The notes beneath the pieces were generated by a model. The model saw only the letters and a list, made by a program, of their open reading frames with translations. It made no database searches and had not been told where the DNA came from. 64,000 bases of DNA from Escherichia coli (GTDB taxonomy: Bacteria > Pseudomonadota > Gammaproteobacteria > Enterobacterales > Enterobacteriaceae), in assembly GCF_011045215.1 (NCBI RefSeq), contig NZ_CP049201.1; one strand, written 5' to 3'. The position numbers and the translations under genes are program-made. This document shows, piece after piece, positions 223-47,430 of this stretch (its first letter is position 1; every line of letters begins with the position of its first letter).

Positions 223-768
223 TTACAAACCAACGCGCGCTTTCATCCAGCCATAGACAAACGACTCATTGGCCTCGCGTTTCTCTGCCAGCTCCAGATA
301 ACGCTCGCCCTGCGTACAGTTCAGGGCTTTCACCAGTACCAGTTCACCATCCCTGCTGCGATTTTTCAGATATGCCCGTAACGCATTAAGAGTACGCGGT
401 CCGATGCGTCCATCTGCATCCATATCCGGATAGAGTTTCCCGCGCAGGTTAAAAACATTCAGCCAGCGCTGAAGCATTCTGGACGCCACGGCTGGTCCCA
501 TGTTCACGCCCGTGTCGCACAACTCTGCGGCAATATCCGGAGACAGATTCTCAACCTGGTCGAATCGTGGTCCGTACCAGTAGTCCGCCTCGAGTATTTC
601 CAGCGCCTGCCCACGCGTCAGGTCACGCATATCGCCCTGATAACCGTGTGCACGGGCAACTTTTTCAGTGATGCCCCATTTAGTCGGACCACCTTTATCA
701 TCCGGGTGATTGACGTAACCGCCCTCTTTTCCCAGAATTTCGTCAAAAATTTCATCTTTCGACTTCAT
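223..768 (-). CDS. phage endolysin, GH108-like lysozyme with peptidoglycan-binding C-terminal region
   Basis: ORF-track protein carries the IFDEILGKEGGYVNHPDDKGGPTKWGIT motif typical of GH108 lysozymes; start placed at internal ATG 766-768 preceded by GAAGG; last gene of lysis cassette. Confidence 0.75.
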   Translation of the reverse strand: MKSKDEIFDEILGKEGGYVNHPDDKGGPTKWGITEKVARAHGYQGDMRDLTRGQALEILEADYWYGPRFDQVENLSPDIAAELCDTGVNMGPAVASRMLQRWLNVFNLRGKLYPDMDADGRIGPRTLNALRAYLKNRSRDGELVLVKALNCTQGERYLELAEKREANESFVYGWMKARVGL

Positions 769-769
769 A

Positions 770-1060
770 TCAGCGCCTTCGTAATACAAGGATTTTTGAT
801 ACGTTCCCGCGTGCTCGTATCACCAGCACGCAGAACACCAGGTTAATCAGGACGACCAGCCAGTTACCGGGTGGAAAGCGACCACACAGATAACAAAGCG
901 GCGCAAAGGCATAAAGCAGCATCAGCAGCCAGGCCAGCCACGACATCAGCGGTTTATGTCTCGACTCACCACGACGATAAAAAAAGAGCGTCAGCACGAT
1001 AACCGTGCTTAACACCACATTCAGTAATCCGGGAAGGTTACTTAACATTACCGCCTCCAC
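770..1060 (-). CDS. small hydrophobic lysis-cassette membrane protein (holin/antiholin-like accessory)
   Basis: 96-aa ORF with two long hydrophobic stretches, wedged between the putative holin and the endolysin with short overlaps. Confidence 0.45.
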   Translation of the reverse strand: MEAVMLSNLPGLLNVVLSTVIVLTLFFYRRGESRHKPLMSWLAWLLMLLYAFAPLCYLCGRFPPGNWLVVLINLVFCVLVIRARGNVSKILVLRRR

Positions 1061-1427
1061 CCCGCAGACGGGAGAACAGCCCGGATACCAGCGATGCGAT
1101 ATCCTGCTGGTGGATGAATGAGAGAATCTTCACTGACACCACCGATACCAGTACCGCACAAAGCGCGTCGAGAGATGTGCTGTGGAGATTCAGTTTTTCA
1201 ACCAGGTAAGACGCCATCACATCCGCCCCCAGCACGCCAACAATGAACGACACCAGAAAATGCGCTGCCACACGCCAGACAGAAATCTTCTGTGGTATCG
1301 TGGCCACAAACAGCGCCCCTGCGAATGCACCAAACACAATCCCGAAATCCGTTCCGGTAAACAGCCCGAATACCGTCGCCCCGCCGAGCGCCGCAGCCGT
1401 GCCGGAACCGGATAAGGGTTCAGACAT
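1038..1427 (-). CDS. putative phage holin
   Basis: Track ORF 1038..1640 trimmed to ATG at 1425-1427 preceded by AGGAGA; 129 aa, glycine-rich hydrophobic segments (GTAAALGGATVFGLFTG...), directly upstream of endolysin. Confidence 0.6.
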   Translation of the reverse strand: MSEPLSGSGTAAALGGATVFGLFTGTDFGIVFGAFAGALFVATIPQKISVWRVAAHFLVSFIVGVLGADVMASYLVEKLNLHSTSLDALCAVLVSVVSVKILSFIHQQDIASLVSGLFSRLRGGGGNVK

Positions 1428-1443
1428 ACTTTTTCTCCTGTAA

Positions 1444-1468
1444 ATAAAAAAGGGCCGCTGTCGGCCCG
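1444..1468 (-). terminator. hairpin plus T-run on minus strand, immediately upstream of holin (tR'-like)
   Basis: GGGCCG-ctgt-CGGCCC stem at 1453-1468 flanked by A-runs on plus strand, so T-run follows hairpin on minus strand. Confidence 0.4.
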
Positions 1469-1597
1469 TAAAAAAACACCCCGTCAAAGGCACCCGCAGA
1501 TGCCTTTTGTGTGGTGTTATCTGGTGTTTTCTGATGTGGTGTGTGCAGGACACAGATGTGAAAAAGGTCCGCCGGTACGAACCCTGTGTATGGATAA

Positions 1598-1625
1598 AAA
1601 AATGCCCGTCATGAGACGGGCTAAC
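1598..1625 (-). terminator. second hairpin plus T-run on minus strand
   Basis: GCCCGTC-atga-GACGGGC preceded on plus strand by AAAAAAA (T-run after hairpin on minus strand). Confidence 0.35.
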
Positions 1626-1675
1626 GCATTCATCATGCAAGAGTTAAGCAGGATTACCTGTATCGAATTATCGGT

Positions 1676-1751: not shown

Positions 1752-1906
1752 AACGCATACCATTAACAATGTAAAAAACACAGCACTGAAACTGTAACCG
1801 GCCAGGCATTACAGAATGAAGAAAATAAAGTGTCCGCAACCAGATTCTTCACGAAAATTCGTCAGTGCTGATAAAGCTATGACTCATCAGTTTTACTGGA
1901 GAACGG

Positions 1907-1982
1907 TGGCGGGAATCGAACCCACATCATCAGCCTGGAAAGCTGAGGTAATAGCCATTATACGATACCCGCATACTGTGCT
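1907..1982 (-). tRNA. tRNA-Gly(UCC)-like pseudo-tRNA; acceptor 3' strand not complementary
   Basis: Minus strand reads GCGGGTATCGTATAATGGCTATTACCTCAGCTTTCCAGGCTGATGATGTGGGTTCGATTCCCGC, near-identical to E. coli glyT through D, anticodon (loop TTTCCAG) and T arms, but then continues CACCGTTCTCCA, which cannot pair with the 5' GCGGGTA. Confidence 0.4.
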
Positions 1983-2190: not shown

Positions 2191-3237
2191 TTAAAAATCT
2201 TTCGTTATTTCTCTGACCGTCTGATTAAAACGTTCCTCTTCCAGTTCCACGCCAATCGCCCTGCGTCCCAGCAACAGTGCCGCTTTTATCGTGGAACCTG
2301 ACCCCATAAAAAAATCTGCGACCAAATCGCCTGGACGGCTGCTGGCAGTAATTATCTGACGCAACATATCCGCCGGTTTTTCACAGGGATGTTTGCCCGG
2401 ATAATACTGCACGGGCTTGTGCGTCCAGACATCCGTATAAGGAACGACAGCCGATACGGAAAAATAACGCCGCAGTGATTTGTATTCCTCCAGCAGGCTG
2501 ACATATTGCCGGTTCAGTTCGCTGTATGTGCTGACCAGCTGGTGATGTGGCTGCTCCAGTTCACCGCGCTGGTGTTTTTCTGCCGCCACACGTGCAAACA
2601 GCGCCTGCAGTTTACTGTAATCGGCCTCATTCGGTAACTGCCACTGACTGGTACCAAACCAGTGCGAAACCATGTTTTTCTTTCCGGTGGCTTCAGCTAT
2701 CTGTTTTGACGTTATCCCCAGTGATTCACGCGCATCACGGAAGTAAGAAATCAGCGGGGCCATCACGTGCTGTTTAAGCTCGCGCCCCTTTGCCGCATAG
2801 CCGTCATTTTTTGGCTGGTATGGCCCCTGATAATGTTCAGCAAACAGAATGCGCTCTGTTGCCGGGAAATACGCCCGCAGGCTTTCCTTGTTGCACCCGT
2901 TCCAGCGTCCGGACGGCTTCGCCCAGATAATGTGGTTCAGCACATTAAAGCGCTCACGCATCATGATTTCGGTGTCAGATGCCAGGCGATGACCACAGAA
3001 CAGGTAAAGACTTCCGGCAGGCTTCAGTACCCGCCAGAACTGCGCCAGACATCGGTCCAGCCATTGCAGGTAATCATCGTCGCCCTTCCACTGGTTATCC
3101 CAGCCCTCGGGCTTCACTTTAAAGTATGGCGGGTCTGTGACTATCAGATCGACAGAGTTTTCCGGTAATGTCCGGATAAATTCCAGGCAATCCGCGTTGA
3201 TTAACTCACAACTGGATATTTTTACAGTATTAGCCAT
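2191..3237 (-). CDS. DNA methyltransferase (N6-adenine or N4-cytosine type), orphan
   Basis: 348 aa with DPPY motif near N-terminus (LIVTDPPYF) and FxGxG AdoMet motif near C-terminus (FFMGSGST); no nuclease recognised alongside. Confidence 0.85.
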   Translation of the reverse strand: MANTVKISSCELINADCLEFIRTLPENSVDLIVTDPPYFKVKPEGWDNQWKGDDDYLQWLDRCLAQFWRVLKPAGSLYLFCGHRLASDTEIMMRERFNVLNHIIWAKPSGRWNGCNKESLRAYFPATERILFAEHYQGPYQPKNDGYAAKGRELKQHVMAPLISYFRDARESLGITSKQIAEATGKKNMVSHWFGTSQWQLPNEADYSKLQALFARVAAEKHQRGELEQPHHQLVSTYSELNRQYVSLLEEYKSLRRYFSVSAVVPYTDVWTHKPVQYYPGKHPCEKPADMLRQIITASSRPGDLVADFFMGSGSTIKAALLLGRRAIGVELEEERFNQTVREITKDF

Positions 3238-4928: not shown

Positions 4929-5309
4929 TCAAGATTCCACTTCGGCATCCATTTCTAAACTTACATCCAACATACTCAGGCAACCGTCGATAAACCCTTC
5001 AGCCATCTGTATCTCTATACGTATCAATTTCTCATCCTTCCAACGCGCCTTTGCAATCTTGCGCTTGGATATCCTGTATAAATAATGTGCCACAAGAAGC
5101 GAATGCTCATAAGGCCTTTTTTGCTTTAAACAAGCAAGACAACCTTCAATAATTAATGCGTCACTATCTGAACAAGCCAGGCGTTTCTTACTGGTATAGG
5201 GCAGAAGTCCCTTAAACCCGGCAGCTATAGGTGAATAGTCCACACCCGAGCTATCACTAGCCGCCCATGCCCCCCAACGCTCAAGAACCATCTGAATATC
5301 ACGCGCCAT
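4929..5309 (-). CDS. late-gene antiterminator Q (QuuD/DLP12-type)
   Basis: MARDIQMVLERWGAWAA...IAAGFKGL...LEMD matches the remembered QuuD sequence; sits after rusA as in lambdoid nin-Q regions. Confidence 0.75.
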   Translation of the reverse strand: MARDIQMVLERWGAWAASDSSGVDYSPIAAGFKGLLPYTSKKRLACSDSDALIIEGCLACLKQKRPYEHSLLVAHYLYRISKRKIAKARWKDEKLIRIEIQMAEGFIDGCLSMLDVSLEMDAEVES

Positions 5310-5670
5310 CGTTACCACCTGTAATTTCGTAAATCTTCACACCCAGCCGACCACCAGGTACGCGCTGACCGCGCACAATATTAATTTCATCAAACTGCTC
5401 GTCGTCGATAAGCAACCCCGCATGTGTCAGTGCATCCAGTGGTGCTTTCAGAATATTGTCCAGGTCACGACGGCGCTTATCCGGTGGCTCTGCAGTAATT
5501 TTTATTGCCAGCCTTCCGGACAGATTTAATTTCAGCCGCTGCTGGCGAACAATGAGCGCCACATCACGGCGATAACGCTCACCGGCTTTTGATACAAAAT
5601 ATGTGCTGCCACGACGTCGCCAGTAGGTGTTTACCGTCGGCGGGTAAGGCAAAACAAACTCTATACGCAT
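5299..5670 (-). CDS. rusA: RusA-family Holliday junction resolvase
   Basis: 123 aa; PPTVNTYWRRRGSTY and RRRDLDN motifs match RusA. Confidence 0.85.
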   Translation of the reverse strand: MRIEFVLPYPPTVNTYWRRRGSTYFVSKAGERYRRDVALIVRQQRLKLNLSGRLAIKITAEPPDKRRRDLDNILKAPLDALTHAGLLIDDEQFDEINIVRGQRVPGGRLGVKIYEITGGNDGA

Positions 5671-5682
5671 CAGTAACCTCTT

Positions 5683-6732
5683 TTACCCGAGCACGCCGGT
5701 TGCAAAGGCGTGATCAAGAAAACGAAAAATTAAATCAACCTGGGAACCATGCTTTTCTTCGAACGCCAGCGGATCCGCATGAAGTTCGTTGTGATGTTCC
5801 CGGCATAACGGTAGCGTGAAAATATCGTGGGATTTTGTTCCCATTCCGCCCTGACCATGACCAATCAGGTGATGGGGATCGTCGGCTGGCTTACCACAGC
5901 ACGCACACGGCTGTGTCTTTACCCAGCGTGTATATTTCTCATTTATCCAACGGCGACGTTTAGGTCGCTTCATGAAAGATTCCGGAGACTCCGGATCTAC
6001 GGCAATGCTGACCACCGTCTTTTCCTGTGGTGCGTTCTGTTGCTGGTGGGCGTGAGGTGGTAGCGCAATATTTTTTGTGCGCTGCTTCAGTATGCTGGTA
6101 GCTGTCTGCTCTCCCGGTACGATGTCGCTTTCGCGGTATACTGAGTGGATTTTTTCACCCGGAAGCTTCAGGATTCGACGCGCCATATTTTCGGTCATGG
6201 CATCCACTACATCATTTACAGCAGCCCAGCAGTACAGTTCAGCCAGCGATAATTCCCGCTCCTGTGTACCGCTTATTGCGTGACGTATGACGTCAATCAT
6301 CCAGGCTGTCAGATTTTGTTGAGCAAGCTGCCCGAGTGATTCGGAGGTCTGGTCACGCAGCTGGTTGTCGCAGTGCCAGCACAACACCATCGCGCCGGTG
6401 CCGTAACGATGTATGACGGTTTCACTGTGATGATAGTCACCATGAGGCCACTGGCAGGATTTGACATGACGCAACAGCCAGTCAGACAGTGCGCCAGCGC
6501 CGCCAGCAGCACGAATCACCCGCTCATCGCTGAAAAATGGCAGTAATGATTTATCTTCCGCCAGCGGCTGGCGAACAGCAGGAACAACTCCGAACGGCAG
6601 ACCGCGCATGCTTTTCGGTTCCGGTTCCACCAGCACTCGAGGGTTATGAAATACCTGCATGGATTCACGACCAGGCTTAAGGACCACCAGCCCGAGTTCC
6701 GGTACCGGAACAGGTCGAAGTAATACCCGCAC
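5683..6732 (-). CDS. DUF968/YdfU-like protein with C-terminal HNH-type motif
   Basis: 349 aa, same length as Qin YdfU; C-terminal CACCGKPADDPHHLIGHGQGGMGTKSHDIFTLPLCREHHNELH. Confidence 0.75.
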   Translation of the reverse strand: MRVLLRPVPVPELGLVVLKPGRESMQVFHNPRVLVEPEPKSMRGLPFGVVPAVRQPLAEDKSLLPFFSDERVIRAAGGAGALSDWLLRHVKSCQWPHGDYHHSETVIHRYGTGAMVLCWHCDNQLRDQTSESLGQLAQQNLTAWMIDVIRHAISGTQERELSLAELYCWAAVNDVVDAMTENMARRILKLPGEKIHSVYRESDIVPGEQTATSILKQRTKNIALPPHAHQQQNAPQEKTVVSIAVDPESPESFMKRPKRRRWINEKYTRWVKTQPCACCGKPADDPHHLIGHGQGGMGTKSHDIFTLPLCREHHNELHADPLAFEEKHGSQVDLIFRFLDHAFATGVLG

Positions 6733-7267: not shown

Positions 7268-7400
7268 CTCCCCTTAAGGGGACCATCCTTCTTCTCCCTG
7301 CGCGCCAATCAAGTAATGAGATTCTATTTCCCCCGTAATTAGCCTCAAGAACAACAAATCACAAAAACACAAAAAGCCTGTTTGATTAAAAATAATCGTA

Positions 7401-7424
7401 ACAAAAAACCCGCCGAAGCGGGTT
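7401..7424 (-). terminator. rho-independent terminator downstream of hok
   Basis: AACCCGC-cgaa-GCGGGTT hairpin at 7407-7424 preceded on plus strand by AAAAAA, so T-run follows on minus strand. Confidence 0.45.
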
Positions 7425-7492
7425 AAGTGCGGGTGCGTTGAGGATGCCTGACACATCAGAGGTGGCGAGGGATTTCTCCCCCGCCAGGTCTC

Positions 7493-7648
7493 TTACTCCT
7501 CAGATTCGTAAGCTGTGAAGACAGCGACCTCCGTCTGGCCGGTTCGGATTCGTACCTCGCAGAGGTCTTTCCTCATTACCAGTGCCGTCACTATGACGGT
7601 TAAACAGATGACGATCAGGGCGATTAACATCGCCTTTTGCTGCTTCAT
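7493..7648 (-). CDS. hok: Hok/Gef-family type I toxin
   Basis: MKQQKAMLIALIVICLTVIVTALVMRKDLCEVRIRTGQTEVAVFTAYESEE is near-identical to remembered HokD; AAGGAG 7 nt upstream. Confidence 0.85.
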   Translation of the reverse strand: MKQQKAMLIALIVICLTVIVTALVMRKDLCEVRIRTGQTEVAVFTAYESEE

Positions 7649-7705
7649 AGCCTGCTTCTCCTTGCCTTTCGGCACGTAAGAGGCTAACCTACGTTTGTGT
7701 AGCAT
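7493..7705 (-). CDS. mok-like overlapping reading frame
   Basis: In-frame N-terminal extension (MLHKRRLASYVPKGKEKQA) upstream of the hok ATG, as in hok/mok/sok loci. Confidence 0.45.
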   Translation of the reverse strand: MLHKRRLASYVPKGKEKQAMKQQKAMLIALIVICLTVIVTALVMRKDLCEVRIRTGQTEVAVFTAYESEE

Positions 7706-8102
7706 AGATTGGGCCTCAGATTAATGTTAAGCGTCTTGCCGGACGCGTAATGTTAACTGGGGCTTTTCTCTGTCTGCCTTACAGTGGCATGCCCGAGGCA
7801 GACAGCCTCAGGCACCCGCAACAATCTTACCGACACCGATAAGAAAACGCTATTTTTTATTGCCAGAACCTTCTGCCCAGGCTAATGTATCCGCGTCAGA
7901 ACGGCGCAATGCGCTCGCCTGAGATACGTTTACTTGTCATTGGTGGCAACAGATAACGGCAATTGTTGTTTCTGTTTGTTTCCTTCAAAAACCCCGGACC
8001 ATCAATCCGGGGTTTTTGTTTGTTATCCCCAGCGGCAAATCGAATACACCATCAGCGCCACCGCCATCGCAATTCCTGCCGTTGTGAATGCTTCAGGCCA
8101 GG

Positions 8103-8465
8103 TCATCGTAAAATATCCTCCACGCTTATCAGTCCGTTTCGCTCCAGGTAGTCCATCACCTTATCCGGCAGTTTGCAGTCCGGCTTCGCTTTCCTCAGTT
8201 GCCAGGTTAACTGCTTTACCTGCATGGTTAACTCGTCGACCAGACGCTGATACCCCACTGGTTTGTATTCATAAAATTTACCAACTGGCGCTGCTGCCAG
8301 CGATTGCAGTGCAATTTCCAGAACAGCAATATCCATCTTATATGCGCGAATGAGGTCATGGTCGATTGTACCTGGTATGCACAGTCTCTGTGATTCAATA
8401 GTCTCCTCTGCGTGGGCTATTAACTGCTCTTTGGTAAACCGTTCTTCTTTGGTCAAAGTCGCCAT
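8103..8465 (-). CDS. hypothetical phage protein
   Basis: 120-aa ORF in early-right operon; starts 1 nt after stop of upstream small ORF. Confidence 0.5.
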
Positions 8466-11468: not shown

Positions 11469-12197
11469 CTAACCAACATTTGAACGCCAGCTCTCCCAGT
11501 TAAAATTCACCCAGCGACCACCGTTCATGGTCATGCGGTCCATCACGCGCTCGCCAAGCAGCGTATTCATTGCCGTATGGTTCAGGTTCGTCAGCATCCC
11601 GACGCTGTGCATCGAGGCTGTTCTGCGATCGACTATCTGGTTCAGTGTGACCTGTTCGTTACGCGTATCCCGCTGCATACCAATTTCATCCAGGACAAGC
11701 AGGTCAACTTCACACAACCCCTGCAAAAATTTTTCGCCCGAGTTTTTGTTGTCGTAGTTGCCGTGTAACGCCAGCATCACATCCGCCACCGTCACCACAA
11801 TCACGCTGCGACCTTTCGCCAGAAGATGGTTGCCAATGGCTGCTGCCAGATGATTCTTTCCGGTACCCGGCTTACCGCTGAACACGAAATTTGTGCATCC
11901 GGTCATCATTTCTTCCGCGATGGATTTTGCCTGGCTCAGCGCGTGGCGTTGGCCATCGTTCTTCACCTGGTAATTCGCAAACGAACACTTCTGGTGCAAC
12001 AGTTGGATACCGGAACGCTTCATAATTTTCTCCACCCGGATCTGGCGATTCTGGCGGTTAATTTCCTCACTACGCTTTCGCCCTTCTGCAAGCTGCCACT
12101 CTCGCCACTCGTCCACTGTCCGGTACGGCGCGGTTACATGCTGCGGGGCCAGCTTACGGATACGCTCAAGAACACCACCTGCCGCAATATTTTTCAT
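11469..12197 (-). CDS. DnaC/IstB-like replicative helicase loader
   Basis: Walker A FSGKPGTGKNHLAAAIG and Walker B LLVLDEIG; position equivalent to lambda P / Rac YdaV. Confidence 0.85.
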   Translation of the reverse strand: MKNIAAGGVLERIRKLAPQHVTAPYRTVDEWREWQLAEGRKRSEEINRQNRQIRVEKIMKRSGIQLLHQKCSFANYQVKNDGQRHALSQAKSIAEEMMTGCTNFVFSGKPGTGKNHLAAAIGNHLLAKGRSVIVVTVADVMLALHGNYDNKNSGEKFLQGLCEVDLLVLDEIGMQRDTRNEQVTLNQIVDRRTASMHSVGMLTNLNHTAMNTLLGERVMDRMTMNGGRWVNFNWESWRSNVG

Positions 12198-12203: not shown

Positions 12204-13313
12204 TTACCCCCTGAATCCCGGCGGAATTTCGGTATCCGGTTCAGAAATATGATTCACACAACGCTGGTTGTTCGTGCCGCTTACCGGGAGCAACCAGGGG
12301 TTTTCAAAATTCCGGTCCGGTCCAAAAAACGTCGTCGCTCGCTGAACAAATTCCGTTCCCGCTTTCCCGGTCGCCGCCAGGTATCTCGCGTAACGCCTCA
12401 CACCATCCAGCATGGTCTCTGGTGGCACCCCCTCGCGCAATCTGGCCTTCCAGGCACTGAATGCGGATTTCTTCGGGTTTGCCCCGGCACGCAACGGGTA
12501 TTCCCGCCAGACCTGTTCGAACACATCCGGATAATCCACTCGTCCCACAGGCCGCCCGGTGTTTTCCGGGACTACCCGATCGGCTTCCCGCTGAATGGCG
12601 GAATCGGCTTCAGGCTGCTGCAGTTGGTGTGATTGCTCCGACCCTGCGGTCATCACCTGCTGCACAGCGCCCGAATCGGTTTTCAGCGCATACGCCGAAT
12701 CGGCTTCCGGTGTCGTGCCTGCTGGCTGACCAGAATTTACGGTCTGAACATCCCCTGCCTGGTTCGTGGTGTTTTTTTCGCCATGAGCTATAGTGTTTTT
12801 GTCCTGTTCTTTCTCCTGCTCCTGTTCCTGTTCTTGGCTTCGAAGCCCCTTAAAAGCCCCTTCGAAGCCCCTTACCGAATTTCGGCTATTATTCCGCCTC
12901 ACATCCAGATGGAAATCCGTTTTATATCTGTCGTAAAACGCTGACAGAAAAGCGTTTTCAGGTAATGATGCATACTCATTCCTGACACCTGCACAACGGT
13001 TATCGCCAGGCTTCAACGTTTCCCCAACCTGCCAGGCTGCCATTTCATGGACCCAGACCATCTCGGCATCATGGTCATAGCTACAAAAACCAGCTTCAAC
13101 AGCCCTTTTAAGCCCCTTTGAAGCCCCTTCCAGACCAAGCCCGGTTTCATGAGCAAGGTATAAAACTGGCAGGTAATACAAACCCAGCATATTTGCGTGA
13201 GGGGATGTCATCAGGTAAAAAGCAACAACTTGCGCTTCTGCACCCGCCTTTCTAAGTTCTCTCCCCGTTTCTCCCAGCCAGAATCGCGGAGAAACTTTTG
13301 CGTAATCACGCAT
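12204..13313 (-). CDS. replication initiator (O-like / YdaU-like) with internal iterons
   Basis: Track ORF trimmed to ATG 13311-13313 preceded by GAGG; immediately upstream of the helicase loader; contains iteron-like repeats and an acidic QEQEQEQEKEQ linker. Confidence 0.65.
   Translation of the reverse strand: MRDYAKVSPRFWLGETGRELRKAGAEAQVVAFYLMTSPHANMLGLYYLPVLYLAHETGLGLEGASKGLKRAVEAGFCSYDHDAEMVWVHEMAAWQVGETLKPGDNRCAGVRNEYASLPENAFLSAFYDRYKTDFHLDVRRNNSRNSVRGFEGAFKGLRSQEQEQEQEKEQDKNTIAHGEKNTTNQAGDVQTVNSGQPAGTTPEADSAYALKTDSGAVQQVMTAGSEQSHQLQQPEADSAIQREADRVVPENTGRPVGRVDYPDVFEQVWREYPLRAGANPKKSAFSAWKARLREGVPPETMLDGVRRYARYLAATGKAGTEFVQRATTFFGPDRNFENPWLLPVSGTNNQRCVNHISEPDTEIPPGFRG
12843..12873. 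repeat. iteron-like direct repeats, three AAGCCCCTT copies at 11-bp period
   Basis: Copies at 12843-12851, 12854-12862, 12865-12873 inside the O-like gene. Confidence 0.6.
13101..13129. repeat. second iteron cluster (AAGCCCCTT x2 plus a degenerate copy)
   Basis: AGCCCTTTT at 13101-13109, then AAGCCCCTT at 13110-13118 and 13121-13129. Confidence 0.5.
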
Positions 13314-13530
13314 GGCTACCTCATCTGGTGCCGAACCTTCCTCCGGATATAATCTGTGGTTCCCAATCGACAGAACCAGAGGAGGTTCGACATGTATTTT
13401 TTGAAAAGCCTTTATCAGGCTCATGTATTAAATGTTGCAGCAACAAACCGCTGGTGTAACAGCCCCGAAATGCTCCCGGATTACAGAGCCTGGCTGCGCG
13501 CCGAAACATACCTTCGTCTCGACATATTGA

Positions 13531-14053: not shown

Positions 14054-14479
14054 TTAATGCACAGCCAGAGTGTTTCCTGCCGGGCCACCACGATTCATCT
14101 GATCGAACAGAACGATCGCTGATGCAACGAAATCATCAATATCTTTCACCAGCCGTTCCTTCGTCTCTACCAACTCCCGAAAATAAGCGGAACTGTGGCT
14201 GCGCATTCGGGCCACCAGCGGAGGCGGCATTGCTTTTTCGATCGCTGGTAACAACGCCTGAATTTTTTTAACCGCATCAGGGGTGTCTTTATCCAGCCAA
14301 CGGAAAATTTTCTGGGTATTACGAGCCAGCGCTTCCGGATGCCTGTCGTCATATAGCTCCGGGAACGTCATACCCAGCTCAAAATAAGCCTGGGTTATTT
14401 CAGCTGCCGGAACTTTTTCACCGTCCGGATGCGCCCAGGCATTCATCGCCATACGGATGTGTTCATGCTTGATTTTCAT
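14054..14479 (-). CDS. YdaT-like regulator (CII-like position)
   Basis: 141 aa; N-terminus MKIKHEHI and length match remembered Rac YdaT; follows the Cro-like gene with a 17-nt overlap. Confidence 0.7.
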   Translation of the reverse strand: MKIKHEHIRMAMNAWAHPDGEKVPAAEITQAYFELGMTFPELYDDRHPEALARNTQKIFRWLDKDTPDAVKKIQALLPAIEKAMPPPLVARMRSHSSAYFRELVETKERLVKDIDDFVASAIVLFDQMNRGGPAGNTLAVH

Positions 14480-14738
14480 GAATCAACTCCGGTGTATTTG
14501 GTGTGTTAGCCTTATCTCCAGCAGGCAACCCGTCAGTTGGATTCGGGTATAAATCTGGTCGCAATTCATGAGGAGTCACCCCAGTTGCAATATAAATTTG
14601 ACGAACCCGTTCCCCCGTCGGAACTCGACCATTGTATTCATTTGCCCATTTGTGTATTTGAGATGGCCAAGCCCCTATTGCACGCCCTAGTGGACGAATA
14701 CCACCAGCAATCTTTATTGCTTTGTCCAATGCTGTCAT
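14463..14738 (-). CDS. Cro/YdaS-like HTH regulator
   Basis: 91-aa ORF divergent from the repressor gene; GGAGG upstream; helix-turn-helix-like segment GIRPLGRAIGAWPSQIHKW. Confidence 0.65.
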   Translation of the reverse strand: MTALDKAIKIAGGIRPLGRAIGAWPSQIHKWANEYNGRVPTGERVRQIYIATGVTPHELRPDLYPNPTDGLPAGDKANTPNTPELIHENQA

Positions 14739-14841: not shown

Positions 14842-15231
14842 ATGGACATGAGAAAAAAGCAATACGACACCCCGCTAGCAGAAAGGTTAGATGCGATCTC
14901 TCAACAGCATCATTTAAGTGGTTCAGATTTAGCGCGTATCGCTGGTGTAGGTCGTTCATCAGTCAACGCATGGAAAAAAAGAGGAACAATCAGTAAAGAT
15001 TCCGCAGCCAAAATTGCAGAAGCCACAAACGTTTCCCTTTCTTGGCTACTGACAGGGAAAGAAGAGACAAATAGAGAAGCGCTTGATGATGACGAGAAGG
15101 CCCTGCTTGATGTTTACAGAAACCTGCCACCTGTAGAACGTAGAAATATGCTGGCAGCTTTTCAAATGCGACTTCAAAAACTGACCGAATTTTACTCAGA
15201 ATACGTCGACCCAATAACACGACAAAAATAA
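14842..15231 (+). CDS. prophage repressor-like HTH protein (XRE family, no peptidase domain)
   Basis: 129 aa; HTH segment LSGSDLARIAGVGRSSVNAWKK; divergent from the Cro-like gene across a 103-bp operator region. Confidence 0.65.
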   Translation: MDMRKKQYDTPLAERLDAISQQHHLSGSDLARIAGVGRSSVNAWKKRGTISKDSAAKIAEATNVSLSWLLTGKEETNREALDDDEKALLDVYRNLPPVERRNMLAAFQMRLQKLTEFYSEYVDPITRQK

Positions 15232-18449: not shown

Positions 18450-20885
18450 ATGAGCACTGATAAAGAAGAATTTGCATTATATTGTGAAGCAAAAAATGAC
18501 AAAGTCAGAAAACGCCTTGGAATTAAAGGTGGTTTTTACTGGACTACAGCAAAAAAATTATCTGTTGCCATCTCCCGCTGCATTACCGCAATGGATGACA
18601 ACGATTATGATGAAGACGACTTTAAAAAACCCGTCCGCGTCCATTTACCCGTTGTGAATGACCTTCCACCTGAAGGCGTGTTTGATACTGAATTCTGTAA
18701 CCGTTACGAAAAAGGCGGGGAAGATGGCATCACAATGGTATTTATCGCGCCCTCACCCTCTGCGCAGGACAAACCAGCCAACATTGACAATACCAACGTC
18801 AACGGCGAAGACATGACTGAGATTGAGGAGAACATGCTCCTGCCGGTTTCAGGTCAGATTCTGCCTGTTCGATGGCTGGCACAGCACGGCAGCAAAAAAC
18901 CGATCACACACGTTTCGCGGGACGAACTGCGCGCATTACATAACGCACAGGATGAAAAACTTCCCGCCGTTACCGCGCTGGCTATCTCAAATAAAGCAGC
19001 GCAACTCGAACCGCTGGAGATTCGCGATCTCCACAAACTGGTGCGAGACACTGACAAAGTTTTCCCCGCCCCCGTAAATTCGGACCTGGGACTGATAACC
19101 TCTTTTATCGAAGCATACCTAGACGCCGACTACACCGATCGCGGTCTGCTGACAAAAGAGTGGATGAAAGGAAATCGTGTTTCGCGTATCACCCGTACGG
19201 CTTCCGGTGCAAATGCCGGTGGCGGGAACAAAACCGATCGCAATCCGAATTTAGTACACACCTTCGATACGCTGGATGTGGAGATTGCAACAGCCACACT
19301 TCCGATGGATTTTAATATTTATGAAATTCCGGGCAGCGTTTATCGTCGCGCAAAAGAAATCGTCCTGAAAAGAGAAAGTCCGTTCAAAGAATGGTCCGCA
19401 GCACTTCGCGCAACCCCGGGTATTCTGGATTATTCCCGCGCCGCTATTTTTGCACTTATCCGGAGCGCTCACCCTGAGTTTTATCACTACCCGGGACGCC
19501 TTCAGGGGTATATCAACGCCCACTTAACGGAGACTGATCACGAGAACCCCAGCAAGGAAACTCTCACTGCTGCACGACATACACCGGAAAAAGACATCCT
19601 GGAAGAAGTTAACCGCGAACTGGCTGCTGAACGCGAAACAGAAGAAGAAAAAAATAATGAGGAAAAATCACAACCGTCTGACGCAATGGCAGATGAACAG
19701 GCAACGACTGAAGCAATGGGACAGGATACAACTGAATATCGCCAGGACACACAATCGCTGGATACTCAGGCACAGATAAATCCGGTTAATCAGGTAAAAG
19801 TTACCGCTGACGAAGTAAACAAAATTATGCAGGCAGCCAATATCAACCAGCCTGATGCCGACAAAATACTGGCAGTCCATCGCGGTGAATTCGTTGACGG
19901 AATTAGCGACCCGAATGATCCGAAATGGGTTAAGGGGATTGAAACCCGCGATTCTGTGAACCAGAACCAGCCCGAATCGGAACAAAACAGCCAAAATGCG
20001 TTACAAAACGAGCCAGAAACGAAACAGCCTGAACCAGAAGAGCAACAAGAACCGGAAAAAGTCTGCACCGCCTGCGGTCAGACCGGCGGCGGCAACTGTC
20101 CTGACTGTGGCGCGGTGATGGGCGACGCAACATACCAGGAAACATTCGATGAAAAAAATCAGGCTGAAGTTCAGGAAGATGATCCGGAGGAAATGGAAGG
20201 CGCTGAACATCCGAACAATGAGAATGCTGGTAACGATCAGTATCACGCCAGCGATAGTGAAACTGGCGAGGCGACAGATCCCTTAATTAATGTGAACGGT
20301 CATCACGAAATCACATCCACCAGCAGTACGTGTGACCATCTAATGATCGACCTTGAAACCATGGGAAAAAATCCTGATGCCCCGATTATCTCAATAGGTG
20401 CAATATTTTTCGATCCGCAAACCGGAGATATGGGACCGGAATTTAGTAAGACTATAGATCTGGAAACAGCTGGCGGAGTCATTGATCGTGACACCATTAA
20501 ATGGTGGCTTAAGCAATCACGCGAGGCGCAATCTGCCATTCTGACCGATGAAATCCCGTTAGATGATGCACTGTTGCAATTGCGGGAATTTATCGACGAA
20601 AACTCCGGCGAATTTTTTGTTCGTGTCTGGGGAAATGGAGCCAGCTTCGACAACGTAATTTTACGCCGTTCATATGAACGGCAGGGGATCCCCTGCCCGT
20701 GGCGTTACTACAACGATCGCGATGTACGCACAATTCTTGAACTGGGAAAAGCCATAGACTTCGATGCCAGAACGGCTATTCCATTCGAAGGCGTACCCCA
20801 CAATGCGCTGGACGATGCCCGTCACCAGGCAAAACAAGTTTCAGCTATCTGGCAAAACCTGATCCCGAGTCAGGCTGATTTTTAA
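18450..20885 (+). CDS. large phage exonuclease-like protein (C-terminal DnaQ/DEDDh-like 3'-5' exonuclease, acidic linker, zinc ribbon)
   Basis: 811 aa; C-terminus LMIDLETMG...WGNGASFDN...HNALDDARH fits DEDDh motifs; CTACGQTGGGNCPDCG zinc ribbon; E/Q-rich low-complexity centre. Confidence 0.7.
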   Translation: MSTDKEEFALYCEAKNDKVRKRLGIKGGFYWTTAKKLSVAISRCITAMDDNDYDEDDFKKPVRVHLPVVNDLPPEGVFDTEFCNRYEKGGEDGITMVFIAPSPSAQDKPANIDNTNVNGEDMTEIEENMLLPVSGQILPVRWLAQHGSKKPITHVSRDELRALHNAQDEKLPAVTALAISNKAAQLEPLEIRDLHKLVRDTDKVFPAPVNSDLGLITSFIEAYLDADYTDRGLLTKEWMKGNRVSRITRTASGANAGGGNKTDRNPNLVHTFDTLDVEIATATLPMDFNIYEIPGSVYRRAKEIVLKRESPFKEWSAALRATPGILDYSRAAIFALIRSAHPEFYHYPGRLQGYINAHLTETDHENPSKETLTAARHTPEKDILEEVNRELAAERETEEEKNNEEKSQPSDAMADEQATTEAMGQDTTEYRQDTQSLDTQAQINPVNQVKVTADEVNKIMQAANINQPDADKILAVHRGEFVDGISDPNDPKWVKGIETRDSVNQNQPESEQNSQNALQNEPETKQPEPEEQQEPEKVCTACGQTGGGNCPDCGAVMGDATYQETFDEKNQAEVQEDDPEEMEGAEHPNNENAGNDQYHASDSETGEATDPLINVNGHHEITSTSSTCDHLMIDLETMGKNPDAPIISIGAIFFDPQTGDMGPEFSKTIDLETAGGVIDRDTIKWWLKQSREAQSAILTDEIPLDDALLQLREFIDENSGEFFVRVWGNGASFDNVILRRSYERQGIPCPWRYYNDRDVRTILELGKAIDFDARTAIPFEGVPHNALDDARHQAKQVSAIWQNLIPSQADF

Positions 20886-20949: not shown

Positions 20950-21198
20950 ATGGCAAGACTTATTCTGCTCACTGAGTGGGCAAAAGAGGAATTCAGCGAT
21001 CCGGTCCCTACTCCGGGCACGTTAAGTAAATACGCTAAAGCCGGAATGATATTTCCTCTCCCCAAAAAAGTTGGAAGACACTGGCGAGTGGATCCACGAG
21101 CTCGCTTTGTCGGAATGGTAAACAAGCCGGAGGTGATCGCCACAGATCACCCTGCTTTGAAGAGGATACTGGAAGATGGCGCGCCCGCGAAAATATAA
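20950..21198 (+). CDS. xis: excisionase (lambda Xis-like)
   Basis: 82 aa, overlaps int start as in lambda; GMIFPLPKKVGRHWRVDPRARFVG resembles lambda Xis. Confidence 0.7.
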   Translation: MARLILLTEWAKEEFSDPVPTPGTLSKYAKAGMIFPLPKKVGRHWRVDPRARFVGMVNKPEVIATDHPALKRILEDGAPAKI

Positions 21199-22306
21199 AA
21201 CCGAAGTTCCGGGACTATCTCCGTATTTTGACAAAAGAAATAACAAAGTTTACTGGCGTTACAGGCATCCCATAACAGGCAAAAATCACGGTCTCGGCAG
21301 TATTGACCAGAAACTGGCAGAAACTATTGCAGCAGAAGCGAACAGCCGTCTTGCCAGGCAGCAAATGGAACAAATGCTCAGTCTGCAGGAGAAAATTATT
21401 AATGATACCGGCGGTTCATCAACCGTTTCCATTTTTCTGAATAATTACAGAAAAATTCAACAGGAAAGATATGAAAACGGAGAGATCAAACTCAACACGC
21501 TGAAACAAAAAGCGGCCCCTCTCAGGGTATTTGATGAACGTTTTGGCACCAGACCGTTAGATGCCATAACTGTAAAAGATGTGGTATCGGTGCTGGAAGA
21601 GTACAAGGCCAGAGGACATAACAGAATGGGGCAAATTTTCAGGAAGGTACTGATCGATGTTTTCCGGGAAGCTCAGCAAACAGGCGATGTTCCGCCAGGC
21701 TTTAACCCTGCAGAATCGGCAAAAAAACCGCAGGTGCGGATATCAAGACAGCGACTGACTTTTGATGAGTGGATGATGATTTATAACGCAGCGGAAAAGG
21801 ATGGTTACTTTTTACAGCGCGGCATGCTGCTGGCACTGATGACAGGCCAGCGCCTTTCAGATATTTGCAAAATGCAATTTTCGGATATCCGGGATGGTTA
21901 TCTTCATGTCGAACAGCAAAAAACAGGAACCCGGATTGCCATCCCTCTTGCTCTGCGTTGCAATAAATTAAATCTCACCCTGGATGATGTGGTGTCATCC
22001 TGTCGCGATTGCGTTCTTAGTCCGTGGCTATTGCACCACCATCATGCGAAAGGGACAGCCAAGCGCGGCGGGATGGTTAAGCCAGCAACGTTAACAGTTG
22101 CATTTAAAAAAGCGCGGGATTCTGTGGATTACAACTGGCGTGCTAATGGCACCCCACCCTCTTTCCATGAGCAGAGATCTTTATCAGAGCGATTGTTCAG
22201 AGAGCAGGGAATTGATACCCAAATTTTGCTGGGTCATTCGAATCAAAAAATGACCGATATTTACAACGATGCACGCGGCAAGGAGTGGAAAAAACTGGTC
22301 ATTTGA
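21176..22306 (+). CDS. int: tyrosine integrase (lambda Int family)
   Basis: 376 aa; LTFDEWMMIYNAA...LALMTGQRLSDICKMQFSDIRDGYLHVEQQKTGTRIAIPLAL aligns with remembered lambda Int catalytic region. Confidence 0.9.
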   Translation: MARPRKYKTEVPGLSPYFDKRNNKVYWRYRHPITGKNHGLGSIDQKLAETIAAEANSRLARQQMEQMLSLQEKIINDTGGSSTVSIFLNNYRKIQQERYENGEIKLNTLKQKAAPLRVFDERFGTRPLDAITVKDVVSVLEEYKARGHNRMGQIFRKVLIDVFREAQQTGDVPPGFNPAESAKKPQVRISRQRLTFDEWMMIYNAAEKDGYFLQRGMLLALMTGQRLSDICKMQFSDIRDGYLHVEQQKTGTRIAIPLALRCNKLNLTLDDVVSSCRDCVLSPWLLHHHHAKGTAKRGGMVKPATLTVAFKKARDSVDYNWRANGTPPSFHEQRSLSERLFREQGIDTQILLGHSNQKMTDIYNDARGKEWKKLVI

Positions 22307-22313
22307 TGACCAG

Positions 22314-22347
22314 TTTTGCAGAGGAGTTTTGCAGAGATTTTGCAGAG
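22314..22347. repeat. three direct TTTTGCAGAG repeats between int stop and ompW stop (att arm region)
   Basis: Copies at 22314-22323, 22327-22336, 22338-22347. Confidence 0.6.
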
Positions 22348-22351
22348 AAAA

Positions 22352-22990
22352 TTAAAAGCGGTACCCGGCAGAGAACATAAACACCCACGGATCCAGTCGT
22401 ACCGCGTCTTTCACGGGTGTTCCGTTAGATTTATAGCTGGCTGTGGTATCGATATCCATGTACCACACTGACATGTTAACCAACCAGTCACGGTTAATCA
22501 GATAATCAACCCCCACCTGCCCGGCAGCTCCCCAGGAATCTTTCAGACTGAGATCGGAAAGCCCCGCCTCTTTGCCATGATCGTTAAATCCATTATCAAA
22601 GAAGGTGGTGTAGTTAATACCTGCCCCAACATAAGGACGGAATTTGCTGCTGGCATCACCAAAATACCACTGCGCCATCAGTGTTGGCGGCAGATGATGA
22701 ACGGTTGCAATATCGCCGGTCGCCCGGGTGCCGATTTTATGGCGGAACGGCGTCGCTGCCAGTAATTCCACACCAATGTTGTCGGTCGCCATATAAGTAA
22801 ACGTCAGGCCCAGTTGAGTGTTATTGGTCACGCTGAATCCACCCAGACTTCCTAACGTACCACCAGCACCTTCTGTTGGACGTACGGTTGCAGAACCTGC
22901 ACGCATAAAAAATTCGCCTGCTTCATGCGCAAAGGCACTGCCAGAGAGAAGAGTTGTTACTGCCAAAGCCGCCACTGTTAACTTTTTCAT
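22352..22990 (-). CDS. ompW: outer membrane protein W
   Basis: 212 aa with signal peptide; matches E. coli OmpW. Confidence 0.95.
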   Translation of the reverse strand: MKKLTVAALAVTTLLSGSAFAHEAGEFFMRAGSATVRPTEGAGGTLGSLGGFSVTNNTQLGLTFTYMATDNIGVELLAATPFRHKIGTRATGDIATVHHLPPTLMAQWYFGDASSKFRPYVGAGINYTTFFDNGFNDHGKEAGLSDLSLKDSWGAAGQVGVDYLINRDWLVNMSVWYMDIDTTASYKSNGTPVKDAVRLDPWVFMFSAGYRF

Positions 22991-47186: not shown

Positions 47187-47271
<85 letters not shown>

Positions 47272-47430
47272 TCACTTTCAAAAGTACCTGAACTCTCAAG
47301 CGAATCCGTAAATAAATATTCTGCCCAAGCGGGGAAGGACGAGAAGCTTCGACCAAGGTTCGACTCGAGCGCCAGCGAGAGAGCGTTGCCGCAGGCAACG
47401 ACCCGAAGGGCGAAGCGCGCAGCGCTGAGT

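What the first reader, a model, noticed from the sequence alone, without database searches (positions are those of the whole stretch)
7400..7950. hok/mok/sok-type type I toxin-antitoxin in the nin region
A Hok-family peptide (near-identical to remembered HokD) has an in-frame upstream mok-like extension and a downstream minus-strand terminator. The long GC-structured leader on the plus-coordinate side should carry the fold-back elements and an antisense Sok-like RNA. Such loci on prophages act in post-segregational killing or phage exclusion.
Basis: partly seen in the sequence, partly recalled or inferred. Interest (0 to 1): 0.45.

Follow-up and report, generated by a model that had tools for sequence, protein, structure and literature searches.

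The report
Prophage hok/mok/sok toxin-antitoxin cassette
This is an ordinary, already well-known hok/mok/sok "host-killing" toxin-antitoxin cassette carried by a lambda-like prophage of E. coli, complete in all its parts, although this copy has a rare one-base change that probably weakens the switch that turns the toxin on.

Summary
The minus strand at 7401-7830 carries a complete hok/mok/sok type I toxin-antitoxin cassette.

- **Toxin:** a 51-aa Hok (Pfam HOK_GEF, E=2e-22), 49/51 identical to K-12 HokD and 47/51 to HokW of phage 933W.
- **mok:** an in-frame 19-codon upstream extension.
- **Leader:** it matches Rfam RF01794 at 109 bits.
- **Other RNA parts:** 5'-3' end pairing (tac/fbi), a terminator, and an antisense Sok gene at 7697-7767/7773 (+). 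Its -35/-10 hexamers are identical to those of the experimentally validated sokW.
- **Setting:** the cassette sits between the replication genes and DUF968-RusA-Q of a lambdoid prophage integrated beside ompW, the position of lambda's nin region.

The kind is already known. Similar DNA occurs in 4723 of 5426 complete E. coli genomes and in 102 phage records, and hokW-sokW has been characterised (PMC8621323). Unlike K-12 hokD, this copy keeps its regulatory leader.

This copy differs from its nearest relatives at only two bases. One gives Hok T25M. The other is tac U7C, the position equivalent to the R1 T6C loss-of-function mutation. Constrained folding predicts that U7C locks the processed mRNA in its untranslatable form, so this copy may be disarmed.

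Interest is low.

The parts
7824..7829 (-). Putative hok promoter -10 hexamer (TAAGAT), 7 nt upstream of the inferred +1
   Evidence: Read from the sequence. Homology with 933W begins here, where 933W has TAGAAT. Of 96 related cassettes, 95 keep a TANNNT hexamer at this site. The consensus scan did not flag it.
7402..7817 (-). Full-length hok mRNA, about 416 nt; 5' end inferred by homology
   Evidence: The Rfam RF01794 match starts at 7817. The terminator lies at 7424-7407. MFE -173.5 kcal/mol, z=-5.86.
7806..7817 (-). tac (translational activator) element GGGUGCCUGAGG. Position 7 (coordinate 7811) is C here and U in 94 of 96 related cassettes.
   Evidence: Rfam marks pair 7-54 as non-canonical.
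7789..7815 (-). 5' metastable hairpin (GUGCCUGAGGC / GCCUCGGGCAU)
   Evidence: Predicted in the folds of the truncated mRNA. Such a metastable 5' structure is described for R1 hok (PMC9841398).
7757..7764 (-). ucb / anti-SD box (AGCCCCAG). It pairs with the mok SD in the closed form and with tac in the open form.
   Evidence: The full-length MFE pairs it with 7713-7719. The Rfam consensus pairs it with tac.
7697..7773 (+). Sok antisense RNA (71-77 nt): single-stranded 5' tail, long hairpin, U-rich tail
   Evidence: The annotated sokW of 933W maps to 7697-7767 (offset +4920). The annotated 5' end of K-12 sokC aligns to 7697 and its 3' end to 7773. Fold -33.5 kcal/mol, z=-5.1.
7662..7690 (+). 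Sok promoter: -35 TTGCCT (7662-7667), 17-nt spacer, -10 TAACCT (7685-7690)
   Evidence: Identical to 933W sokW over the whole promoter. The promoter-less sokW mutant of PMC8621323, which lost antitoxin activity, replaced TAACCTA (primers YO-421/422).
7714..7717 (-). mok Shine-Dalgarno GAGG
   Evidence: Read from the sequence. Conserved in 94 of 96 cassettes. Sequestered by ucb in the full-length fold.
7493..7705 (-). mok reading frame (70 aa), in frame with hok and sharing its stop codon
   Evidence: PHROG phrog_251 'MokW-like host killing', 8.8e-32. The exact sequence is in NCBI as QIF13990.1.
7680..7684 (-). dcb (downstream complementary box) GCCUC
   Evidence: Paired with the mok SD region in the Rfam consensus structure.
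7493..7648 (-). hok toxin gene (51 aa; Met25 where relatives have Thr)
   Evidence: The exact sequence is WP_206438885.1.
7508..7510 (-). Tyr47 codon UAC followed by G: a candidate TadA A-to-I recoding site (Tyr to Cys)
   Evidence: Read from the sequence. The codon and the three bases after it (UACGAA) match K-12 hokD. Editing is reported for hokC, hokD and hokE mRNAs (bioRxiv 10.1101/2025.08.07.668861). This is an inference.
7464..7485 (-). 3' UTR stem-loop GGCGGGGGAGAAAUCCCUCGCC, the likely 3' end protector of the processed mRNA
   Evidence: Predicted in all folds. Its role is inferred from R1 (PMC9841398).
7431..7451 (-). fbi (fold-back inhibitory) region, complementary to tac in two registers (UCAGGCAUCC and CCUCAACGCACCC)
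   Evidence: The MFE pairs it with tac. Duplex -23.1 kcal/mol, with 0 of 300 shuffled tails as good.
7401..7424 (-). Intrinsic terminator of hok mRNA
   Evidence: Shared with K-12 hokD.
7986..8018 (.). Two-way terminator-like hairpin between the upstream phage genes and the hok promoter (a flanking insulator)
   Evidence: flags it on the + strand. The reverse complement also ends in five Ts. It is absent at the same place in 933W.

Best explanation
The region is a complete cassette of the hok/mok/sok family (hokD/hokW clade), carried as an autonomous 'moron' in the nin-equivalent region of a lambdoid prophage.

**Mechanism (inferred from the family).**
1. A weak promoter makes a stable hok mRNA of about 416 nt.
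2. Its 5' end (tac) pairs with the 3' fbi element, and the ucb box hides the mok ribosome-binding site. The full-length mRNA is therefore neither translated nor bound by Sok.
3. Slow 3' trimming removes fbi. tac then pairs with ucb, which exposes the mok start.
4. Translation of mok runs through the hok start and permits Hok synthesis.
5. Hok is a 51-aa inner-membrane peptide that collapses the membrane potential.
6. The unstable antisense Sok RNA is made from its own strong promoter inside mok. It pairs across the mok SD and AUG, blocks translation and triggers RNase III cleavage.
7. When Sok synthesis stops, Hok is made.

**Sub-claim (about 50% likely).** This copy is attenuated. Its tac U7C change breaks the tac/ucb stem and strengthens competing pairings, so the processed mRNA should stay closed.
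For: **Shown here.**
- Pfam HOK_GEF 2e-22.
- PHROG 'MokW-like host killing' 9e-32.
- Rfam RF01794 at 109 bits over the whole 157-position model.
- In-frame mok of 19 + 51 codons.
- The full-length MFE forms both tac/fbi and ucb/SD-mok pairings, z=-5.9.
- tac/fbi complementarity of -20 to -24 kcal/mol lies 38-52 nt after the stop codon in six intact loci, with different sequences in each. It is absent from the IS-disrupted hokC and hokE.
- The Sok start, -10 and -35 coincide with annotated sokW and sokC.
- The terminator is present.

**From papers.**
- HokW, 92% identical, is toxic and is neutralised by sokW. Mutating the TAACCT -10 abolishes protection (PMC8621323).
- The refolding model for R1 hok mRNA comes from PMC9841398.

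**For attenuation.**
- Only two differences from the nearest relatives in 471 nt: 7811 and 7575.
- 94 of 96 cassettes have U7.
- R1 T6C, at the homologous base, is a loss-of-function substitution. The numbering was checked against a 100%-matching IncF plasmid sequence.
- Constrained folding of the truncated mRNA gives open minus closed = -1.9 kcal/mol with U7 and +5.1 with C7. For R1 T6C the shift is only +1.8.
- hokB has C7 with a compensating G.
Against: - There are no expression, RNA-end or toxicity data for this copy. The 5' end, the Sok ends and the processing are all inferred by homology.
- The consensus promoter scan flagged neither promoter.
- The attenuation argument rests on thermodynamic prediction and on an analogy with R1.
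- K-12 hokE carries the same uncompensated C7 opposite A, and a second genome (UTAK-6) has C7. The allele may therefore be tolerated.
- The effect of T25M is unknown. Met25 recurs in several sequence backgrounds.
- Chromosomal hok loci tested earlier did not mediate post-segregational killing (cited in the preprint).
Confidence: 0.9

Rival explanations
1. The cassette is fully active, and its role is that shown for hokW-sokW. On prophage induction Sok disappears, Hok is made before holin and endolysin, and lysis and phage release are advanced.
For: In Sp5, hokW-sokW behaves this way: Sok is lost after mitomycin C in a RecA-dependent manner, and phage yield is halved without the locus (PMC8621323). 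The window cassette is 92% identical in DNA over the shared part and has an identical Sok promoter. The prophage here looks complete in its early, lysis and integration genes.
Against: The tac U7C change is predicted to hinder activation. In 933W the cassette lies at the far right end of the genome, next to different genes and not in the nin-like region. The trigger may therefore not carry over.
Confidence: 0.3
2. The cassette works as an addiction (post-segregational killing) or retention module for the prophage. Cells that lose the prophage lose the short-lived Sok and are killed by the stable hok mRNA.
For: This is the classical role of R1 hok/sok on plasmids (PMC9841398; PMC10899753 abstract). 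hok genes are four-fold enriched in prophages (preprint). The cassette has its own promoter and terminators.
Against: Chromosomal hokA, hokB and hokC loci did not mediate post-segregational killing (cited). Deleting hokW-sokW had no effect on growth. The C7 allele should reduce killing.
Confidence: 0.2
3. The cassette acts in abortive infection or phage exclusion. An infecting lytic phage shuts off host transcription, Sok decays, and Hok kills the cell before the phage completes its cycle.
For: R1 hok/sok on a high-copy plasmid reduced T4 plating efficiency by 42% and plaque size by about 85% (cited in PMC8621323).
Against: hok genes are not enriched near defence systems (preprint section heading; discussion). 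The effect was shown only at high copy number. No data exist for prophage copies.
Confidence: 0.15
4. It is a chance ORF, or a K-12-type hokD remnant that lacks regulation (the relBE-hokD arrangement).
For: K-12 hokD is such a remnant. Its homology with the window starts only at the hok SD, and it has no RF01794 match.
Against: The window has the full leader, mok, Sok promoter, tac and fbi. No RelB or RelE lies upstream: the two nearest upstream ORFs have no Pfam family and the third matches only DUF7167.
Confidence: 0.01

Closest known systems
hokW-mokW-sokW of Stx2 phage 933W / Sakai prophage Sp5 (experimentally characterised; PMC8621323)
   Same: - Hok is 47/51 identical.
- DNA is 92.4% identical from the -10 to fbi.
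- It has the same in-frame 70-aa mok and the same 71-nt Sok with the extended hairpin.
- The Sok -35, spacer and -10 are identical.
- The same 27-aa small ORF lies upstream.
   Different: - The genomic position differs: the right end of 933W next to a ygiW/ydeI-like gene, against the nin-like region here.
- The Sok 5' tail differs at 5 of the first 16 bases, so the two Sok RNAs may not cross-protect.
- The window has its own hairpin terminator; in 933W the sequence diverges after fbi.
- The window carries tac C7 and Hok Met25.
hokD (relF) of the K-12 Qin cryptic prophage
   Same: - Hok is 49/51 identical.
- The 3' UTR, fbi and terminator are the same.
- The neighbourhood type is the same: DUF968 (ydfU) and Q lie downstream.
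   Different: K-12 hokD has lost the whole leader (tac, ucb, mok start, Sok), which is replaced by relBE. Homology begins at the hok SD, and there is no RF01794 hit. The window copy is the intact form.
hok/mok/sok of plasmid R1 (the prototype)
   Same: - The element order is the same: tac, ucb, Sok target, mok, hok, 3' stem-loop, fbi.
- mok has 19 codons before the hok start, 70 in all.
- The same covariance model applies.
   Different: - R1 Hok is only about 44% identical to HokW (PMC8621323).
- In the hokB locus mok is out of frame with hok; my recollection is that this is also so in R1. Here mok is an in-frame extension, as in hokC.
- Sok here has an 18-nt longer hairpin.
- R1 is on a plasmid, where post-segregational killing has been shown.
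hokC/mokC/sokC (gef) of E. coli K-12
   Same: mok is in frame and shares the stop codon. The 5' end of Sok lies 8 nt inside mok in both. RF01794 scores 118 bits.
   Different: The K-12 copy is disrupted 3' by IS186 and has lost fbi. It is chromosomal, not in a prophage.

Membership tests
hok/mok/sok type I toxin-antitoxin family (Pfam PF01848, Rfam RF01794) | A small (about 50 aa) hydrophobic Hok/Gef toxin ORF | tested here: met
   PF01848 E=2.1e-22, 78.9 bits against a cut-off of 22, covering the full 42-position profile. 96% identical to HokD.
hok/mok/sok type I toxin-antitoxin family (Pfam PF01848, Rfam RF01794) | An overlapping mok frame that starts upstream of hok, has its own SD, and runs through the hok start | tested here: met
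   ATG at 7705, GAGG at 7714-7717, 19 codons before the hok ATG. The same layout is found in 77 of 96 related cassettes.
hok/mok/sok type I toxin-antitoxin family (Pfam PF01848, Rfam RF01794) | A cis-encoded antisense Sok gene with its own promoter, complementary to the mok translation initiation region | tested here: met
   The sequence features are met: -35 TTGCCT, 17-nt spacer, -10 TAACCT. The start at 7697 coincides with annotated sokW and sokC. A hairpin plus U-tail follows. Expression itself cannot be tested here.
hok/mok/sok type I toxin-antitoxin family (Pfam PF01848, Rfam RF01794) | Long-range tac/fbi pairing of the mRNA 5' and 3' ends | tested here: met
   Formed in the MFE structure. 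Duplex -23.1 kcal/mol against a shuffled mean of -15.3, with 0 of 300 as good. Compensatory sequence differences occur across six intact loci.
hok/mok/sok type I toxin-antitoxin family (Pfam PF01848, Rfam RF01794) | Closed form: the mok SD is sequestered by ucb in the full-length mRNA | tested here: met
   G55-C105, C56-G104, C57-G103 and C59-G101 are paired in the full-length MFE. The closed form is favoured by 14 kcal/mol.
hok/mok/sok type I toxin-antitoxin family (Pfam PF01848, Rfam RF01794) | Open form: a tac/ucb stem forms in the 3'-processed mRNA and frees the mok SD | tested here: inconclusive
   The stem is alignable to the Rfam model, but pair 7-54 is C opposite A. The truncated mRNA is predicted to stay closed by 5.1 kcal/mol. 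The majority U7 allele is predicted to open by 1.9 kcal/mol.
hok/mok/sok type I toxin-antitoxin family (Pfam PF01848, Rfam RF01794) | Hok is toxic and Sok neutralises it; the duplex is cleaved by RNase III; the mRNA is processed at its 3' end | not testable with these tools
   Shown for the 92%-identical HokW/sokW (PMC8621323) and for HokD toxicity (preprint). Not shown for this copy.
K-12-type relBE-hokD (relBEF) arrangement | hokD lies directly downstream of relE, without the hok leader, mok or sok | tested here: not met
   The window keeps the full leader. K-12 homology starts at the hok SD. There is no RF01794 hit in the K-12 Qin locus. The upstream ORFs are not RelB or RelE.
nin-region cargo of a lambdoid phage | Located between the replication genes and the Q antiterminator, on the same strand as the early-right operon | tested here: met
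   A replication initiator (12204-13424) and a DnaC-like ATPase (11469-12197) lie upstream. DUF968, RusA and Q (5683-4929) lie downstream. All are on the minus strand. Phage mEp460 and K-12 Qin have the same layout.

The most novel reading that the evidence does not exclude
Two linked readings that go beyond 'known cassette'.

1. This copy is a naturally disarmed hok. Its only two differences from its nearest relatives fall on a base equivalent to an experimentally proven loss-of-function site (tac U7C, matching R1 T6C) and on a nearly invariant Thr of the toxin. That would fit selection to silence the toxin while keeping Sok.

2. Across prophage cassettes the one hypervariable segment is the Sok 5' recognition tail together with the first mok codons: 18 alleles in 96 cassettes, with everything else conserved. 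That suggests diversifying selection for mutually orthogonal Sok specificities among the several hok/sok copies found in one genome (median 2, up to 9).
Probability: 0.35. Interest if true: 0.3.

Novelty: already known. Interest (0 to 1): 0.12.

Why it matters
It matters little as a discovery. The family is a textbook system, the prophage clade (hokW-sokW) has been characterised, and annotation pipelines already name the gene.

Three things are useful.

- **Annotation:** the Sok RNA, mok, and the tac, ucb, dcb and fbi elements are not annotated in the related RefSeq records, and here they are placed to the base. Rfam's 'sok' model reports the hok strand, which could mislead automated strand calls.
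- **Intact form of hokD:** this copy shows what the intact ancestor of the rearranged K-12 hokD looks like.
- **Cheap experiment:** the natural tac U7C allele and the hypervariable Sok tail are ready-made material for testing the hok mRNA refolding switch and Sok specificity outside plasmid R1.

Tried and rejected
- **Truncated-mRNA fold.** Folding the truncated mRNA (7817-7458) did not give the textbook open tac/ucb form. I first took this as a limit of MFE prediction. Constrained folding of both alleles then traced it to the window's own C7 base, with R1 as calibration.
- **Promoter scan.** The consensus scan found neither the hok nor the Sok promoter. It flagged a hok-sense TTAACA-18-TATGCT at 7730-7701 inside the leader, which I treat as chance. 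The Sok promoter was placed by homology and by the published promoter-less mutant instead.
- **K-12 relBE-hokD arrangement.** Considered and rejected.
- **Effect of Hok T25M.** I looked for the equivalent R1 T26 substitution in the FASTBAC-Seq paper. It is not in the main text, and no supplementary files are held. The effect stays unknown.
- **Literature.** A search for hok + 'nin region' + lambdoid found nothing.
- **Upstream gene.** I tested whether the 120-aa upstream ORF is homologous to L0139 of 933W, which would extend the shared module. It is not (E=5.7). Only the 27-aa small ORF is shared.
- **Rarity of C7.** A search of 5426 complete genomes for C7 in this sequence background found one other genome, UTAK-6. 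The search needs an exact 28-mer, so C7 in other backgrounds would be missed.

Full report

Yes. On the minus strand a 51-aa ORF (7648..7493) reads MKQQKAMLIALIVICLTVIVTALVMRKDLCEVRIRTGQTEVAVFTAYESEE. An in-frame ATG at 7705 extends it to 70 aa with the same stop codon. The ORF matches Pfam HOK_GEF over the whole profile (E=2.1e-22, 78.9 bits, cut-off 22) and PHROG phrog_251 'MokW-like host killing'. It is 49/51 identical to K-12 HokD and 47/51 identical to HokW of phage 933W.

A minus-strand intrinsic terminator lies at 7424..7407. Rfam RF01794 matches 7817..7643 over all 157 model positions at 109.2 bits (gathering score 59, E=7e-24). The cassette proper is about 7401-7830.

**2. Anatomy**

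*Strand of the Rfam hit.* RF01794 is called 'sok', but it matches the hok-sense strand here and in K-12 hokB, hokC and hokE, where the annotated sok genes lie on the other strand. The model ends in the hok AUG. It therefore describes the hok mRNA leader in its 'open' form: a tac/ucb stem, the Sok-target hairpin and the mok-SD/dcb stem.

*Full-length mRNA.* The 416-nt transcript (7817..7402) folds at -173.5 kcal/mol (z=-5.9). In the MFE structure the 5' tac (GGGUGC.CUGAGG) pairs with the 3' fbi (CCUCAACGCACCC, 7443-7431). The ucb box (7757-7764) pairs with the mok SD (GAGG, 7714-7717). This is the textbook closed form described for R1 (model from PMC9841398).

*tac/fbi across loci.* I tested this complementarity in eight loci.
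- Six intact loci were examined: the window, 933W, two E. coli plasmids, a Klebsiella plasmid and K-12 hokB. Each has a duplex of -20 to -24 kcal/mol that starts 38-52 nt after the stop codon.
- At most 2 of 300 shuffled tails did as well, and the sequences differ in a compensatory way between loci.
- K-12 hokC and hokE, whose 3' ends are cut off by IS186, have no such duplex. They serve as negative controls.

*Sok.* The sokW feature annotated in 933W maps to window 7697-7767 on the plus strand. The annotated K-12 sokC 5' end aligns to the same base, and its 3' end aligns to 7773.

Upstream lie TTGCCT (7662-7667), a 17-nt spacer and TAACCT (7685-7690). This whole stretch is identical to 933W. 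In PMC8621323 the 'promoter-less' sokW mutant replaced exactly TAACCTA (primers YO-421/422) and lost protection.

The predicted Sok has a single-stranded 5' tail that covers the mok AUG and SD, a long hairpin and a U-rich tail (-33.5 kcal/mol, z=-5.1). Compared with sokC, sokB and sokE, the hairpin carries an 18-nt extension.

**3. Context**

The window's first 22.3 kb are a lambdoid (Rac/Qin-like) prophage. Its features:

| Feature | Coordinates (strand) |
|---|---|
| Integrase, next to ompW (22352-22990) | 21176-22306 (+) |
| RecE-like exonuclease | 18450-20885 (+) |
| cI-like repressor | 14842-15231 (+) |
| YdaS/YdaT | 14054-14738 (-) |
| Replication initiator | 12204-13424 (-) |
| DnaC-like ATPase | 11469-12197 (-) |
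| hok cassette | about 7401-7830 (-) |
| DUF968 | 5683-6732 (-) |
| RusA | 5299-5670 (-) |
| Q antiterminator | 4929-5318 (-) |
| DNA methylase | 2191-3237 (-) |
| Holin | 1038-1640 (-) |
| GH108 endolysin | 223-789 (-) |

The cassette therefore sits where lambda's nin region lies and is co-oriented with the early-right operon. Phage mEp460 and K-12 Qin have the same layout.

A two-way terminator-like hairpin (7986-8018) upstream and the cassette's own terminator downstream give it the look of an autonomous moron.

**4. How it compares with what is known**

Similar DNA is found in 4723 of 5426 complete E. coli genomes (median 2 places, up to 9), where it is annotated HokD or Hok/Gef. It is also found in 102 phage records, including 933W and VT2-Sakai, where mokW, hokW and sokW are annotated. 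The exact Hok and Mok sequences are already in NCBI.

[quoted passage not shown] A 2026 preprint catalogues more than 44,000 Hok homologues and reports their enrichment in prophages.

K-12 hokD is a derived form. Its homology with the window begins only at the hok SD, because relBE replaces the leader, and it has no RF01794 hit. The window copy is the intact version. Nothing about the kind is new.

**5. What is particular to this copy**

Over 471 nt the cassette differs from its four nearest relatives at two bases only.
- 7575 changes ACG to AUG, giving Hok T25M.
- 7811 changes tac position 7 from U to C.

*tac U7C.*
- Among 96 distinct related cassettes recovered from IMG/VR, 94 have U7. One other complete genome, UTAK-6, carries C7.
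- Position 7 corresponds to T6 of R1 hok. I checked the numbering against a 100%-matching IncF plasmid sequence, and it agrees with the paper's mok and hok start-codon coordinates.
- In R1, T6C and the other two substitutions at that base abolish toxicity by destabilising the tac stem (PMC9841398).
- Rfam flags the corresponding pair 7-54 as non-canonical in the window. K-12 hokB has C7 with a compensating G.

*Constrained folding, open minus closed energy.*

| mRNA | Allele | Open minus closed (kcal/mol) |
|---|---|---|
| Window, truncated | majority U7 | -1.9 (opens) |
| Window, truncated | window C7 | +5.1 (stays closed) |
| R1, truncated | wild type | +1.7 |
| R1, truncated | T6C (proven loss of function) | +3.5 |

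The swing in the window is 7 kcal/mol. For R1 T6C the shift is only 1.8 kcal/mol.

I therefore consider it about even odds that this copy is attenuated. Against this, hokE carries the same mismatch, the argument is thermodynamic only, and Met25 recurs in several sequence backgrounds.

**6. A side result**

Across the 96 cassettes, per-position entropy is low everywhere in the transcript (0-0.4 bits) except at 7713-7694 (0.63-0.91 bits). That stretch holds the mok start and first codons, which is the target of the Sok 5' tail. It has 18 alleles, while the GAGG and the AUG are kept in nearly all.

This fits diversification of Sok specificity among co-resident copies. I did not test whether it exceeds neutral expectation.

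**7. Verdict**

This is a known kind of element and of low interest. There is one modest, testable twist: a natural tac switch mutation.

Noticed in passing
window 8023-8106 (-); also L001 (933W) 2942-3022 (-): A 27-aa hydrophobic small ORF ([27 protein letters not shown]) overlaps the stop of the upstream gene by ATGA. It also sits just upstream of hokW in 933W (MTWPEAFANVGTVMAVVLVVYSICRWR), and its first 17 nt occur in 23 of the fetched loci, although the upstream genes are unrelated. It has no Pfam or PHROG family. It may be a second small membrane peptide linked to the hok cassette.
   Followed up: partly
window 7694-7713 (-) and 96 related cassettes from IMG/VR (L012 onward): The only hypervariable stretch of the cassette is the mok start and first codons, which is the target of the Sok 5' tail (18 alleles; entropy 0.6-0.9 bits against 0.4 or less elsewhere). 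This suggests many Sok specificities.
   Followed up: partly
related cassettes from IMG/VR: In 19 of 96 distinct cassettes no in-frame mok of 19 codons exists. The commonest such allele (ATGCGACACATAGATTAG, 14 cassettes) stops mok after five codons, well before the hok SD. In R1 that would prevent Hok translation.
   Followed up: no
window 7643-7817 (-); L007, L008, L010: Rfam RF01794 'sok antitoxin' matches the hok-sense strand in every locus tested, opposite to the annotated sokB, sokC and sokE genes. The model describes the hok mRNA leader, so automated strand calls for 'sok' from it are inverted.
   Followed up: yes
window 7986-8018: A strong hairpin (CAAAAACCCCGGA...TCCGGGGTTTTTG) with T-runs on both strands lies between the upstream phage genes and the hok promoter. 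It is part of a roughly 165-nt segment that is absent at the same place in 933W.
   Followed up: partly
window 7508-7510 (-): The Tyr47 codon UAC is followed by G, the TadA 'UACG' context. The codon and the three bases after it match K-12 hokD. [quoted passage not shown]
   Followed up: partly
window 63579-63644 (-) and 63692-63799 (+): A second type I toxin-antitoxin system lies in the window: an rdl antisense RNA (Rfam rdlD, 91 bits) opposite an Ldr peptide ORF (MTLAQFAMTFWHDLAAPILAGIITAAIVGWWRNRK).
   Followed up: partly
window 47187-47271 (+) and 47318-47449 (+): tRNA-Tyr is followed by an RtT RNA repeat (129 bits), the tyrT-type locus. This places the window in the ompW-kch-tyrT-ldr region of an E. 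coli chromosome.
   Followed up: no
window 1902-1972 (-): Rfam gives a weak tRNA hit (36 bits) inside the prophage, between the methylase and the holin. ARAGORN does not call it. The related genome R1-strain annotates a tRNA-Gly between the same two genes, in the segment that aligns with this part of the window. It may be a degenerate phage tRNA.
   Followed up: no
window 21176-22990: The prophage integrase (lambda-type, with an arm-binding domain) lies 45 bp from the ompW stop. The prophage therefore appears to be integrated beside ompW. The attachment sites were not mapped.
   Followed up: no
window 7269-7282: A perfect 14-bp palindrome, TCCCCTTAAGGGGA, lies just upstream of the 64-aa ORF that follows hok. 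A near-identical element lies upstream of rem in K-12 Qin.
   Followed up: no
L133 (E. coli UTAK-6, NZ_CP157151.1 2498422-2499421): A second complete genome carries the rare tac C7 allele. Its cassette has a 933W-like downstream neighbour (a YgiW/YdeI-family gene after hok) and Thr25, so the allele occurs in at least two cassette contexts.
   Followed up: partly
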